From contig OZ024740.1 in NCBI GenBank assembly GCA_964016885.1, positions 367,536,001 through 367,600,000 on the forward strand: a DNA stretch of 64,000 bases, given 5' to 3'. Source of the stretch: Eledone cirrhosa. Its lineage: Eukaryota. This document shows positions 328 through 62,589 of the stretch, piece by piece. Each line of letters opens with the position of its first letter. The first letter of the stretch is position 1. The position numbers and the translations under genes were made by a program. The notes under the pieces are model-generated. The model made no database searches. It was given only the letters and a program-made list of their open reading frames with translations, and had not been told where the DNA came from.

Positions 328-520
328 TGTAAGTTTATCTCTGGTTCAATCCGGAGTAAGGTATTCAATACATAGTAGAGTATAAATATTTAATATAGAA
401 ATAGCTTCTACAGGACTAGAGCTGTTTCATTCGAGAGAAATCATCAGGAAACCCAGCTTCCTGATGATTTCTCCCGAATGAAACCTTTCTAGTTCTGGAG
501 AAACTGTTTCTATGTTAAAT
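328..520. mobile_element. (TA)n-flanked fold-back mini-element, HHR family A (probably PLE-derived)
   Basis: Inverted repeat centred near 454; left end matches 39873-39950; TA repeats on both sides. Confidence 0.7.
404..452 (-). ncRNA. Type I hammerhead ribozyme (family A)
   Basis: Reverse complement reads GTTTC-CTGATGA-T-TTC tctc GAA-T-GAAA-CAG ctctagtc CTG-TA-GAAGC: intact core, stems I-III, GUA triplet. A degenerate mirror copy lies at 456-504 (+). Confidence 0.75.
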
Positions 521-597
521 ATATATATATATACAAATTGGAATATATACATGTATATGCACTCACACACACAATACATATATATATTTAAATATAT

Positions 598-1992
598 ATC
601 GTTTCTGAATTTGTTTAGCAAGATTCTTTATCTGAACACGTCGTGTGTTGAAACCGATATTGTTATACTTTGGGAGGGTCATGTTGCCAATAAGAAACAC
701 ACGCACCAGTTGCTTTCACTTCAATTTATTATAATAAATTTATAAATTGAGGAATTTATAAATTTCCGGTTGGTTGATTGGTTGGTTCCACAACCGGATG
801 GTTGTTTATATATTATCAAAGTGTTTTCGTTATACATTCTGTGACTCCTTCAGTGACCCCCTCAGTGACTGGGGATTCCTTTCTTTGTTTTTGTACCTCT
901 CCTTTGCTCTGTCCTACGCCATTTTGTTTCTGTGTGTGTGTTGTGTGCTCAGTCTGCGCATGCGCCACATCCGGGTGTCCGTGTGTGTTTATATTCGTTT
1001 ATTTATTTGTTTATTTACATGTTACAGGTTGGTTGTTTGTTCTATGTGCGTGTGTGTTTTCATTTTGTCCTTAATTGTAAGTTGTGATGTTGCTGTTCCA
1101 CTCATGTTTTCTATTTAATTTTGGTTGTAATTCTTTTATGTTTATTGCTTCTGTGATTTGTCTAAACATTGCGTCTTTTCTGTGTGTAGATTCTATTTTT
1201 ATTTCTATGTTCTCTAATTTACCCTTATGTTCTATTTTAGCATGTTGGTAGAGTACAGATGATTCTTTACTATCTTGAAGGTTTCGCCAGTGTTCATTTA
1301 TCCGTTCCCCTACACTACGAGCTGTCTCACCTATGTACACTATATTTTTGTCTCTACATTGTCCTTCAGTACATCTTATGCTATATACTACATTTCTAGT
1401 TTTACAGTTAATATGGGGGCTTAATTTACAGGTTATACATTTCTTATCTATACAGGGGGGGTGTCTTTGAAAATGGTATGTCTTGCTAATAAATGTTTTT
1501 ACGGAGGTACATGGTCTTTCTACTATCTTACTATTGAGTTTATGTTTATCTAGGGCCCTTCTAAATGTGTAAGCTAATTCACCTCTAGGGGTTGTATCGA
1601 TGAACATTACACTCTGGTATTTATTGCTATCATACCATGAGTTTATTCTATTAGCCTTATTCCTAGTTCTTTCTATTCTATTCCAAAATTTGCTCCTATA
1701 CAAGGGGCAGGTCCCATTTGTGTCATTATTTACCATTTTTTCCCATTTGGTTCTGGCTCCTCTATACACTCTGATTTTATCTCTCTGATTGTAACCAGAA
1801 GGGGTCACAGAATGTGTGACGAAAAAACTTTGACAATATATAAACAACCATCCGGTTGTGGAACCAACCAATCAACCAACCGGAAATTTATAAATTCCTC
1901 AATTTATAAATTTATTGTAATAAATTGAAGTGAAAGCATCTGGTGCGTGTGTTTCTTATTGGCAACATGACCCTCCCAAAGTATAACAATAT
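598..1992 (-). mobile_element. 5'-truncated Penelope-like element with an inverted pseudo-LTR; same family as 59077-62428
   Basis: GIY-YIG ORF nearly identical to 61250-61971; 1797-1990 is an inverted copy of about 660-850; TA flanks. Confidence 0.9.
1071..1795 (-). pseudogene. PLE C-terminal GIY-YIG endonuclease (5'-truncated)
   Basis: NVVYSIRC...C...YIGETAR...ERINEH...QHAKIEH...RQITEAINI...LNRKHEW. The N-terminus of the ORF-track ORF comes from the inverted pLTR. Confidence 0.85.
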
Positions 1993-2816
1993 ATATATAT
2001 ATATATATATATATATATTGTATGTGTGTGAGTTCATACAATATATATGTATATATTCCAATTTGTATTTTAGAAGAATAAATTTAAGACGTGTGTTTTT
2101 ACATCTAGTAGATGAATCATGATGTGATTTGATTTGAAATCTTACTTTACTGATTATATCTCCCGACCCTTTTTACATTGCCCTTATGAATAAGAATCAT
2201 ATAATTTATCATTACATACATAAGGTGTGTCAATTTTTATTTCCAATATAATATCATGCTTTTAACAGAAACATATTATATTATCCCCACTTAAAACTTG
2301 TTTCCCAAGTAAGAAAATGCTGCCTATATCTTGAAAGGCAATTAAACAAAATCGGTGTTATCCAAGCATGAAAGGTTAACGGTAAAACAGTATTTTTTTC
2401 TTTCTTTAGTAGATTAAGTGATTTATATGACATTTTGTTGTGATAAAAATTCAAGCCTATAAGCAGTAAATAAAGAATATGTTTCAGCCAGAATTTTCTC
2501 ATAGTAATTTATGGGAAAAAGTTATATCACTTATATATGTATATACTCAAACACACAAACACAGACACACACATACACAAACACACAGACACAGACACAC
2601 ACACACACATACATACACACACACACACACACACACACACACACACACATGTATATATATATATATATATATGCGTAAACAATGTTATATAGTTATCTAG
2701 ACAGGATACATTACATTAGACATAACTACAAACAATATTTTATACAAATACACATGCGCTGACTGGCACGGCACATACGTACCCCCATATAGATATATAT
2801 CATTGCTCCACATAAT

Positions 2817-2874
2817 TGTTTCTACTTTAGGCACAAGGCCAGCAATTAACCAGTGCATTACTGGTACTTTATTT
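2817..2874 (-). mobile_element. Truncated SINE 3' end with a 19-bp target-site duplication
   Basis: Matches the SINE tail at about 5920-5980; flanked by TATCATTGCTCCACATAAT at 2798-2816 and 2875-2893. Confidence 0.75.
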
Positions 2875-59427: not shown

Positions 59428-61971
59428 TACACACAAAATAGGGTAGATAACAACAATGAGCCAGTGGAAAGAGACAGGAGTAATTATGAGAGACATAGAA
59501 ACAACCATGAGGCTGTTGGTGGAAATAGAAATAGAAACAACACAACTAACAATAACAATAGCACTAGTACACATAAAGCAGCAGCCTGGAACTCTCCGTT
59601 TTATAATCCCTCCGATAAATCATTCGACCTGCGACGAGTCCACGCCACGACTTTACCATTTAACAAACGCACGCAATTGCCGTCGCAGGTCGATGAATAA
59701 ACAGAAGCACAATTTAGTATAGCTAGATCCGAACTTAGAAATATTATAGAACAGTATAGCAAGAAGCATAATAGAATGGAGGCCCAGCAACTGGGAGAAA
59801 AATCTGCAAATGGCTTGCGTAAGCTCATGCAGCGCTCGCGTAATGGAGAGATAGCATGCTTTCCAACAGACAAGTCTGGCAGAATGTCGGTTGACAGCCT
59901 GCCAAACTACATCCAGGCAATGCAACCCCACATCACTAACACAAGAGAGGTAACACCATAGGAGCATGAGGATAGAGAAAATGCCCCCAATGCCCATATG
60001 GTGATGTGGACGAATATAATGCAGCCCAACAAAAGGACTGCCAACAACTTCCAGGCCTGGAACAATGACGTGCCGGCGTTGTATGGGCTTCAAAAAGACC
60101 ATAAAACGGGCTGTGACCCTGTCGCGGGACCACCAACACGGCCAGTCTGTGGAGCTAACATTGCTAGTAACTACAGACTGTCCTACTTCCTCTCCCTGAT
60201 CATACGCCCCATCATTGAAATGTCCCCAGATGTATGTGACAGGACGGAGGACCTCCTCAGCAGAATCGGCGTGAGTAACCGATCTGGGGACCTAACAAAC
60301 TGCATAATAGGCAGTATGGATGTTGTGTCCCTGTATCCATCTTTTGACGTGGATTTTGCTGTGGAGAAGTGCGTAGAAATGATCAGTGAGAGCAAGGTTG
60401 AGTTCCGTGGGATTGATACCAGTGAGCTGGGACTCCTACTTAAGCTTACCTATAGTAATAGTTACCTAGACACATATGACCTTAGCAACCTGTGCCCTAC
60501 AAGACCAGCAAGAGGCAGACCACCTACCATTACCTCAATGGCCAAGAAAACCCACACAGATAGATGGAACGGGTGGACCAGAGTCATACGGACACCCGAA
60601 AACCACGATGAACTGAAGAAAATGATTGCACATGCGCTAGGGGCCAGCATAACACTAACCCTTAAGGAACATATGTTCAAATTTAATGGAAAAACATATG
60701 CCCAAGAGGAAGGAGCAGCCATTGGTGTTAGCATTGCGAGCGACATAGCTAACTTATTCATGGTATGGTGGGACAGTAGACTTAAACTTAAACTTAAAGA
60801 ACAATTAGAAGACCCCTTAACCCTGATAATGTACTCCCGCTACGTAGATGATATAAACATCGTAGTTAAGACACCCCCACTAGAGAACAGTCAGGAACTA
60901 GAGAAAAACACAATGGAAAGCATCCAGCAAATAGCAAACTCCATCCACCAGAGCATTAGAGTTACTATAGACTACCCAAGTAAACACCCCAACCATCGAT
61001 TACCTGTACTAGACACAGAGCTCTGGTTAGATACCATTAACAACAAAAAACAAATCCTCCATTCCCATTATGCCAAACCCATGACTTCCAAACATCTGAT
61101 CCACCGAAACACGGCCATTTCGGACCATACCAAAATCAACATACTGATTGCTGATTTATTACGGGTGATGAGAAATGTGTCCCGCATGTGCAACCCTGAA
61201 GAACTAGAGAGACACATACAACACTTCATCCACCGTATGCAGTTCTATGGCTACAATCAGAGAGATAGAATCAGAGTGTATAGAGGAGCCAGAACCAAAT
61301 GGGGAAAAATGGTAAATAATGAGTTAAATGGGACCTGCCCCTTGTATAGGAGCAAATTTTGAAATAGAATAGAAAGAACTAGGAACAAGGCTAATAGAAT
61401 AAACTCATGGTATGATAGCAATAAATACCAGAGTATAATGTTCCTCGATACAACCCCTAGAGGCGAACTAGCTTACAAATTTAGAAGGGCCCTAAATAAA
61501 CATAAACTCAATATTAAGATAGCAGAAAGACCAGGTACCTCCGTAAAAACACTTATTAGCAAGACATACCCTTTTCAAAGACCCTCATGTATAGATAAGA
61601 AATGTATAACCTGTAAAATAAGCCCCCATAATAACTGTAAAACTAGAAATGTAGTGTATAGCATAAGATGTACTGAAGGACAATGTAGAGACACAAATAT
61701 AGTGTACATAGGTGAGACAGCTCGTAGTGTAGGGGAACGGATAAATGAACACTGGCGAGACCTTCAAGATAATAAAGAATCATCTGTACTCTACCAACAC
61801 GCTAAGATAGAACACAAGGGTAAATTAGAGAAAATAGAAATAAAAATAGAATCTACACACAGAAAAGACGCAATGTTTAGACAAATTACAGAGGCAATAA
61901 ACATAAAAGAATTACAACCAAAATTAAATAGAAAATATGAGTGGAACAGCAACATCACAACTTACAATTAA
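59428..61971 (+). pseudogene. PLE RT/GIY-YIG polyprotein, about 850 codons in one frame with three nonsense codons (TAA 59698, TAG 59959, TGA 61360)
   Basis: PTDKSG; ALYGLQKDHK; PTRPV; GSMDVVSLYPS; QEEGAAIG; RYVDDI; LPVLD; YAKPM; CIDKKCITC; VVY..C..C..YIGET. Confidence 0.9.
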
Positions 61972-62171
61972 AGACAAAATGAAAACACACACACACATAG
62001 AACAAACAACCAACCAGTAACATGTAAATAAACAAATAGATAAATGAACATAAACACACACAGACACCCGGATGTGGCGCATGCGCAGACTGAGCACACA
62101 ACACACACACAGAAACAAAATGGCGTAGGACAGAACAAAGGAGAGGCACAGAAACAAAGAAAGAAATCCCC

Positions 62172-62216
62172 AGTCACTGAAGAGGTCACAGAGTGTGTTA
62201 CGAAATAACTATGACT
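62172..62216 (+). ncRNA. Minimal type I hammerhead in the 3' pLTR (family K), sense to the PLE ORF
   Basis: AGTCA-CTGAAGA-G-GTCACA..TGTTAC-GAAA-TAAC-TA-TGACT. Confidence 0.75.
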
Positions 62217-62589
62217 ATATATAAACAACTATCTGGTTGTGGAACCAACCAACCAACCAACCAGAAATTTATAAATTTGTAAATTTATAAATATATAATA
62301 AATTGAATTGAAAGCATCTGGTGCGTGTGTTTCTTATTGGCAACATGACCCTCCCAAAGTATAACAATATCGGTTTCAACACACGATTTCAGATAAAGAA
62401 TCTTGCTAAACAAATTCAGAAACGAAATATATATATATATATATATATATATACTGAGGGGCATATGTGCAATATGACCCTCCCCAAGTATAACATACAT
62501 ATATATATATATATATATATATATATATATATATATATATATATATATATATATATATATATATATATATATATATATATAAAGATAAC

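What the first reader, a model, noticed from the sequence alone, without database searches (positions are those of the whole stretch)
328..62428. Polarity rule: in each fold-back insertion both ribozyme-bearing arms point outward into the microsatellite
Seen: the left-arm HHR is on the minus strand and the right-arm HHR on the plus strand in all ten scorable pairs (404/456, 3839/3892, 13986/14671, 16588/16658, 25716/26076, 28141/28733, 36228/36672, 41938/43833, 52907/54934, 59223/62172). Both arms duplicate the same 3' region and join 5'-to-5' at variable points. Classical L1 twin priming instead gives non-overlapping segments. Inference: (TA)n is self-complementary, so both cut ends could prime reverse transcription on element RNA 3' regions, and the two cDNAs then join by microhomology.
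Basis: partly seen in the sequence, partly recalled or inferred. Interest (0 to 1): 0.75.

Follow-up and report, generated by a model that had tools for sequence, protein, structure and literature searches.

The report
Penelope fold-backs primed from two starts
These mirror-image insertions are head-to-head ends of Penelope-like jumping genes, a layout already described; almost every one pairs an arm that starts at one fixed site of the element with an arm that starts at a second fixed site, which likely means both cut DNA strands copy the same RNA molecule.

Summary
All ten window pairs point outward. In 361 sequences from this genome (1.83 Mb), 208 of 208 direct inverted junctions are head-to-head (129 of 129 in three ORF-oriented families). 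The elements are Penelope-like (PLE). Head-to-head geometry, a one-sided tail and (TA)n targets are published (PMC3846280, PMC8557442), so the polarity rule is known.

Each family has two fixed 3' start sites, and 143 of 151 fold-backs pair one outer with one inner start (about half expected). The tail-less arm is longer in 64 of 143, and 25 of 143 have non-overlapping arms; a cDNA folding back cannot make these. Arms share variants (146 vs 34 expected), and one fold-back carries the same rare sense-strand splice in both arms. Start sites share 3 or more TA letters with the target in 10 of 14 cases.

Best reading: twin priming on one RNA at two fixed starts, with strand displacement (0.65). 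Microhomology joining is only partial. (TA)n symmetry is not required, since published non-microsatellite insertions have the same layout. This scan reached the same reading earlier on other DNA, including this genome.

The parts
59073..62426 (.). F2 fold-back: short tail-less arm 59073-59427 (-), junction 59427/59428, long arm 59428-62426 (+) with RT and GIY-YIG ORF pieces, HHR-like core at 62177 and a 56-nt tail 62371-62426
59962..61971 (+). F2 PLE ORF, broken by a stop: RT (RVT_1 E=6.7e-4, below cut-off), then a CX4CXXC linker and GIY-YIG motif; fixes the sense strand
599..1992 (.).
   Evidence: L102
41828..43907 (.). F1 fold-back: tailed long arm 41828-43516 (-, tail 86 nt, unspliced GT-AG intron inside), tail-less arm 43517-43907 (+)
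3731..3965 (.). F1 mini fold-back: tail 3731-3814, both arms stop just 5' of the CAGAAGA core, junction about 3890
52689..55029 (.). F3 fold-back: tailed long arm 52689-54431 (-) with a GIY-YIG ORF piece 53323-53949, tail about 162 nt; tail-less arm 54432-55029 (+)
329..527 (.). F7 mini fold-back: tail about 52 nt on the left arm, cores at 447 (-) and 461 (+)
13713..14919 (.). F4 fold-back of a tandem HHR-bearing unit of about 438 bp; tail about 63 nt on the left; junction 14290/14291
27871..28985 (.). F4 fold-back; tail on the left; junction about 28528/28529
16461..16760 (.). F8 mini fold-back; tail 86 nt on the left; junction about 16653
25536..26264 (.). F6 fold-back; tail on the left; junction about 25977; decayed HHR
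36003..37006 (.). F5 fold-back; tail about 64 nt on the right; junction 36555-36561 with a 7-nt overlap; arms 98-99% alike
14936..16345 (.).
45488..45695 (.). F9 mini fold-back; tail 82 nt on the left; both arms stop at the family hot spot
47118..47268 (.). F9 fold-back; tail on the right
49492..49619 (.). F9 insertion with non-overlapping arms: left arm is part of the tail only, right arm is tail-less (classical twin-priming geometry)
37033..38827 (.). F11 inverted pair with a 33-nt tail on the left; polarity assigned from the tail only, middle part not verified as element

Best explanation
These are head-to-head insertions of Penelope-like retrotransposon 3' ends in (TA)n, and they likely form by twin priming: both cut target strands would prime reverse transcription on one sense RNA, one at a fixed outer start (tail end) and the other at a fixed inner start 33-162 nt upstream. 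Shown: PLE identity of three families, head-to-head polarity, two fixed starts per family, one outer plus one inner arm per insertion, and sense-strand splicing of some templates. Inferred: (1) the element protein, perhaps as a dimer, nicks both strands of (TA)n, and the TA 3' ends pair through 2-5 letters at the start sites; (2) the outer cDNA either stops near the inner primer (non-overlapping arms, as in L1 twin priming) or displaces the inner cDNA and runs on (overlapping arms); (3) both cDNAs stop by truncation or at a family-specific 5' stop; (4) the two 3' ends are joined through 0-4 nt of microhomology or with added letters, and host repair completes the duplex. Outward polarity follows automatically, because each cDNA starts at the target and grows inward.
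For: Polarity: 208 of 208 direct junctions head-to-head, 129 of 129 in ORF-oriented F1-F3. Pairing: of 151 fold-backs with both ends at a canonical site, 143 are outer+inner, 4 outer+outer and 4 inner+inner (p=4e-33 against 0.5). Single-orientation arms use the two sites about equally, 61 outer and 67 inner. Arm lengths: the tail-less arm reaches further 5' in 64 of 143, the tailed arm in 37, equal within 10 nt in 42; 25 of 143 do not overlap. In F1 many tailed arms end at 87-98 nt, just past the inner site at 86. Shared template: 146 shared non-majority letters in 94 arm pairs against 34.2 expected from other copies. L340 is an outer+inner fold-back whose two arms are the only 2 of 65 matched F1 arms spliced at donor 1 (GT-AG, sense strand), and its tail-less arm is the longer. 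Priming: 10 of 14 start sites share 3 or more alternating A/T letters with the target, null 19.5%, p=4e-5; both flanks are TA in 132 of 143. In vitro, the Anolis PLE cuts and extends both strands from two internal starts that bound the tail, and is predicted to be a dimer (PMC11167929, parts 1-2 of 4 read). Raw reads of three samples show opposite-strand joints and TA loose ends at both sites.
Against: No intermediate was observed; the mechanism is read from end products. Eight of 151 break the pairing rule, and 36 of 187 fold-backs had at least one end at neither site and were left out. Shared variants could come from one donor locus or from later gene conversion between arms; the L340 case is n=1 and an intron-less donor is possible. 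No A>G excess among rare shared variants (5 of 23, T>C also 5; p=0.15; 11 of the 23 come from one locus). The F1 pile-up at 87-98 nt lies in an AT-rich stretch, is partly enriched by the tail query, and is not seen in F2 or F3. PMC11167929 found no strand difference in start-site use and no homology between start site and target. Targeted loci are the best-matching copies (40 scored of 52-1336 candidates per search), so young copies are favoured. In F8-F10 the sense strand comes from tail geometry and HHR-like cores, not from an ORF.
Confidence: 0.65

Rival explanations
1. Two RNAs, one per subunit of an asymmetric dimer: each strand primes on its own RNA, and the complex forces one outer and one inner start.
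For: Explains overlapping arms without strand displacement (118 of 143 overlap). A dimer is predicted (PMC11167929). RNAs from one active donor would also share variants.
Against: Both arms of L340 carry a splice form seen in only 2 of 65 arms. It gives no reason for F1 tailed arms to stop near the inner site, and it needs an extra asymmetry rule.
Confidence: 0.17
2. Self-priming (hairpin) on an antisense template or on the first cDNA, with the endonuclease trimming one arm to leave a one-sided tail (PMC3846280; tail as resolution product in PMC8557442).
For: 42 of 143 junctions are near-symmetric and some sit at short palindromes. Arms share variants. It gives head-to-head polarity.
Against: A cDNA fold-back cannot make the 64 of 143 cases with a longer tail-less arm, or the 25 non-overlapping ones except through long-range jumps (for example L029, arms reaching 1125 and 46 nt). 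Five of 65 F1 arms are precisely spliced in sense, two of them in one fold-back. Start sites match the target TA.
Confidence: 0.1
3. Sequential events: a second insertion targets the 5' junction of a first copy in the opposite orientation, or arms arise by later recombination and gene conversion.
For: Copies cluster in the same microsatellites (15 tail-to-tail neighbours across TA). Conversion could explain shared variants.
Against: Independent events would pair start sites at random (143 of 151 are mixed), would leave TA at the junction, and would also give direct tail-to-tail joints (0 of 208).
Confidence: 0.05
4. Assembly or long-read fold-back artefact.
For: Inverted repeats are hard to assemble; the window junction at 59427 was not bridged in the contigs listed, which shows nothing either way.
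Against: Arms differ by 1.1-4.7% per family and begin at different family-specific sites. Of 12 listed opposite-strand joints, 10 recur in raw reads of all three samples.
Confidence: 0.02

Closest known systems
Insertion units of endonuclease-positive Penelope-like elements (PMC3846280, PMC8557442 Fig. 2 legend, PMC2377424; passages seen)
   Same: 5'-truncated copies, partial tandems, an adjacent inverted 5'-truncated copy, head-to-head as the usual arrangement, tail at one end, HHR near the 3' end, (TA)n bias, retained intron in the pLTR region.
   Different: Tails here are 33-162 nt rather than 30-40. The passages read call the tail optional and give no count of outer+inner pairing, arm lengths or non-overlapping arms. 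They explain the inversion by self-priming on an antisense template or by endonuclease resolution.
Poseidon PAc of Anolis in vitro (PMC11167929; parts 1-2 of 4 read)
   Same: Two internal RT starts that bound the tail; both strands cut and extended; AT-rich target; HHR cleavage not needed.
   Different: PAc starts lie about 111-118 nt into the ORF and were reported as not homologous to the target, with no strand difference. The parts read do not derive inverted insertions from the two starts. Here starts share 2-7 TA letters with the target in 11 of 14 cases.
L1 twin priming (Ostertag and Kazazian; recalled, not read here)
   Same: Two target strands prime on one RNA; head-to-head inversion; non-overlapping segments in 25 of 143 cases; short microhomology at the joint.
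   Different: The second primer uses a fixed family site instead of a chance internal site; most arms overlap; no poly(A); TSDs cannot be read inside (TA)n; fold-backs are a major class of product.
Non-LTR retrozymes (bioRxiv 10.64898/2026.07.22.740005; part 1 of 5 read)
   Same: F4 and F5 are tandem HHR-bearing units of about 440-460 bp with no ORF in the window.
   Different: Here they insert as tailed fold-backs like the coding families; circular RNA and self-cleavage were not tested.

Membership tests
EN+ Penelope-like elements | RT followed by a C-terminal GIY-YIG endonuclease | tested here: met
   F2: RVT_1 E=6.7e-4 and GIY-YIG E=2.4e-4, both below curated cut-offs. F1 and F3: YRDD/MGS-type RT and GIY-YIG motifs by eye in L336 and L328, 45% identical over 89 aa; no relevant Pfam hit at E 0.1 and no PDB hit. 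Not shown for F4-F11.
EN+ Penelope-like elements | Partial tandem (pLTR) with the tail running on into the next unit | tested here: met
   L337 (F1) and L328 (F3); F4, F5, F6 tandems in the window.
EN+ Penelope-like elements | Inverted 5'-truncated copy, head-to-head, tail at one end | tested here: met
   208 of 208 head-to-head; 143 of 151 with one tailed arm.
EN+ Penelope-like elements | Minimal type I hammerhead motif near the 3' end | tested here: inconclusive
   Core motifs by eye in 6-8 of 10 pairs; Rfam 0 hits; weak folds; cleavage not testable.
EN+ Penelope-like elements | Mostly retained spliceosomal intron | tested here: met
   F1 GT-AG intron of about 730-760 nt with two donors; 60 of 65 matched arms retain it and 5 are spliced.
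EN+ Penelope-like elements | RT phylogeny with telomerases | not tested
   No tree was built.
Neptune clade | Cys linker between RT and EN, and (TA)n targeting | tested here: inconclusive
   CNCR..CPL..CL in F1 and F3, CX4CXXC in F2; TA on both flanks in 132 of 143. Clade label recalled; no tree.
L1-type twin priming | Non-overlapping inverted segments | tested here: not met
   Only 25 of 143 are non-overlapping; it works like twin priming but is not the L1 form.
L1-type twin priming | Both cDNAs from one RNA molecule | tested here: inconclusive
   Shared variants 146 vs 34.2; one doubly spliced fold-back; no A>G signal.
L1-type twin priming | Target-site duplication around the unit | not testable with these tools
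   Both ends lie in (TA)n; no empty alleles available.

The most novel reading that the evidence does not exclude
Penelope-like elements integrate by programmed twin priming: one RNP loads both nicked strands onto two dedicated start sites of a single sense RNA, so the tail is the spacer between two primers, and the fold-back with a one-sided tail is a normal product. This would explain inverted pLTRs, the one-sided tail and head-to-head polarity with one mechanism, and replace the antisense self-priming model.
Probability: 0.5. Interest if true: 0.75.

Novelty: new variant of a known kind. Interest (0 to 1): 0.52.

Why it matters
How PLEs make inverted repeats and one-sided tails is named as open in PMC8557442, and the published explanation is self-priming on an antisense template (PMC3846280). 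The counts here turn this into sharp predictions for the existing in vitro system (PMC11167929): one outer and one inner start per target molecule, both on one RNA. PLE RTs are described in these papers as the closest relatives of telomerase. These fold-backs are also a large source of ribozyme-bearing inverted repeats in this genome (28 junctions of six families in 800 kb of arbitrary loci). The polarity rule alone is not news.

Tried and rejected
Tail always on the longer arm: suggested by the window, rejected (64 vs 37). Inward pair at 14941/16207, flagged by a loose motif scan: rejected, other copies show an ordinary outward pair with the tail on the right. A>G editing shared by both arms (lead from e1-10280452): not seen. 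Truncation at the predicted HHR cut site: F1 arms do not pile up there (about 114 nt). Rfam: 0 hits. F5 genome search: 0 candidates, uninformative. Window junction 59427/59428: not bridged in the listed contigs of 4 runs, no verdict. No RNA holder listed, which is no evidence on expression. Protein Atlas gave no result; PDB search gave 0 hits. Comparison of (TA)n with (CA)n targets: too few non-TA flanks (11 of 143). Seven paper searches listed no paper whose title or abstract start proposes twin priming at two fixed starts for PLEs; 'Penelope + twin priming + inverted' gave 2 papers on other subjects, seen as listings only. The library lacks most subscription papers (Arkhipova 2006 and Evgen'ev and Arkhipova 2005 not seen), and no supplements were read.
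Full report
Setting. The window is G000:C1:367536001-367600000 of a 3.0-Gb, TA-microsatellite-rich genome. It holds RT and GIY-YIG reading frames and many inverted repeats. I named families F1-F11 after the window copies and used real copies as references.

Observation. In all ten pairs the left arm reads on the minus strand and the right arm on the plus strand, with (TA)n outside. Six pairs have an intact CTGAnGA core on both arms, two a CAGAAGA variant, and two are decayed. 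Rfam finds none and folds are weak, so 'ribozyme' is a motif call. For F1, F2 and F3 the sense strand is fixed independently by ORFs. Over 361 sequences and 1,826,696 bases, six families gave 208 direct opposite-strand junctions, all head-to-head: F1 69, F2 30, F3 30, F9 52, F8 17, F10 10. In the 80 arbitrarily placed loci the count is 28 of 28. Fifteen tail-to-tail neighbours within 300 bp all have TA between them. An artefact is unlikely: arms differ by 1.1-4.7%, and raw RAD-seq reads of three samples from one study show opposite-strand joints in F1, 10 of 12 listed ones in all three samples (15 joints shown, 84 not shown; the tool does not give their direction, most start at one place, and the runs' species is not shown to be this genome's).

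What is known. PMC3846280 (passages) calls head-to-head the most frequent arrangement, places the tail on one inverted pLTR, and proposes self-priming on an antisense template; its examples have 8-10-bp TSDs. PMC8557442 (passages) draws the same units, notes (TA)n targets, and lists inverted structures as unexplained. PMC2377424 (passages) describes inverted termini and an intron-bearing promoter in D. virilis. PMC4209133 (passages) describes minimal HHRs in PLE repeats. PMC8969392 (passages) mentions inverted pLTRs. PMC11167929 (parts 1-2 of 4) shows both strands cut and extended, and two internal RT starts bounding the tail. So the polarity rule is known.

Two fixed starts. Copy 3' ends are bimodal in each family: 0 and 86 nt from the tail end in F1, 0 and 56 in F2, 0 and about 162 in F3, 0 and 82 in F9, 0 and 86 in F8, 0 and 138 in F10. 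The tail runs on into the next tandem unit (L337, L328), so both are internal sites of a read-through RNA. Of 208 junctions, 21 were cut by a locus edge. Of the other 187, 36 had an end at neither site. Of the remaining 151, 143 pair one outer with one inner start, 4 are outer+outer and 4 inner+inner; in arbitrary loci it is 17 of 19. Single-orientation arms use the sites 61 to 67, so independence predicts about half mixed (p=4e-33).

Against a simple fold-back. Among the 143, the tail-less arm reaches further 5' in 64, the tailed arm in 37, and 42 are equal within 10 nt; in 25 the tailed arm ends at or before the inner site plus 10 nt, so the arms do not overlap. A cDNA folding back cannot add a tail it lacks, nor copy sequence it never made. 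F1 has a GT-AG intron upstream of the HHR with two donors. Of 65 matched arms crossing its acceptor, 60 retain it, 3 are spliced at donor 2 and 2 at donor 1. The two donor-1 arms are the two arms of one outer+inner fold-back, L340. This points to a sense, spliced template and fits one RNA molecule, though it is a single case and an intron-less donor is possible.

Same template. In 94 arm pairs, shared non-majority letters number 146 against 34.2 expected from other copies. This does not separate one RNA from one donor locus or later conversion, and rare shared variants show no A>G excess (5 of 23).

Priming and joining. Ten of 14 start sites share 3 or more alternating A/T letters with the target, against 19.5% of positions nearby (p=4e-5); both flanks are TA in 132 of 143. 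Of 80 scorable junctions (near-symmetric and short ones left out), 13 have 3-4 nt of microhomology (null 6.4%), 34 have 2 or more inserted letters (null 16%), and 10 are blunt.

5' stops. In F9, 100 of 128 arms end within -3 to +9 of the A in a TTAGT motif, with TATTTAT about 31 nt upstream; in F1, 43 of 163 do so; F2 (1 of 80) and F8 (2 of 45) do not. Run-off from an RNA 5' end would explain the near-symmetric mini fold-backs. The initiator/TATA reading is recalled consensus, untested, and in F1 the intron lies upstream of this point, so another start or an RT stop is also possible.

Mechanism. Most likely both nicked strands prime on one sense RNA at the two sites; the outer cDNA stops near the inner primer or displaces it; the two cDNA ends are then joined (0.65). 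Rivals: two RNAs in an asymmetric dimer (0.17), self-priming with trimming (0.10), sequential events (0.05), artefact (0.02).

Earlier notes. My reading was fixed. Searches show that this scan reached the same reading in at least 15 genomes and repeatedly in this one; these unchecked notes are not counted as support. One lead from them (A>G) failed here.

Verdict. Observation confirmed; polarity already known; interpretation partly supported; the pairing rule and splice evidence make an open question about PLE integration testable. New variant of a known kind, interest 0.52.

Noticed in passing
window 30508-33930 (-): Frameshifted non-LTR retrotransposon with RT (PF00078 E=1e-22) followed by CCHC- and PD..D-like motifs; (TCT)n and (TTA)n runs at 34956-35040 lie just upstream. 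It resembles the R4/Dong REL type (label recalled).
   Followed up: no
window about 42085-42846 within F1; L340, L012, L029, L326: F1 carries a GT-AG intron of about 730-760 nt with two donors; 5 of 65 matched arms are precisely spliced.
   Followed up: yes
F9 (window 45488-45695) and F1 (3731-3965): Strong 5' stop at a TTAGT motif just upstream of the HHR-like core; 100 of 128 F9 arms and 43 of 163 F1 arms. Possible transcription start.
   Followed up: partly
L332:1830-1880, L333:7287-7337, L022:1069-1117: About 50 nt of the F1 tail sits inside another abundant repeat with constant flanks; also seen as loose ends in raw reads at 41865 and 41915.
   Followed up: no
window 13713-14919, 27871-28985, 36003-37006: F4 and F5 are related (65-69%) tandem HHR-bearing units of about 440-460 bp with no ORF nearby, retrozyme-like, yet they insert with the same tail rule.
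   Followed up: partly
L009, L302, L306, L320 (F10): The tailed end of F10 often abuts (CA)n/(GT)n rather than (TA)n.
   Followed up: no
window 18182-19019 and 29221-30094: Two 67% alike, oppositely oriented fragments of another retroelement-like sequence.
   Followed up: no
L096-L099 (C1:399.28-399.37 Mb); L113/L114; L269/L270: Near-identical insertions with the same flanks at several places: segmental or tandem duplications, about 28 kb apart in the first case.
   Followed up: no
L080, L105, L158, L180, L306: Some junctions carry short templated repeats of the arm end, suggesting repeated re-priming.
   Followed up: no
window 41374-41653: A 76% alike palindrome without TA flanks; not one of the tailed families examined.
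   Followed up: no
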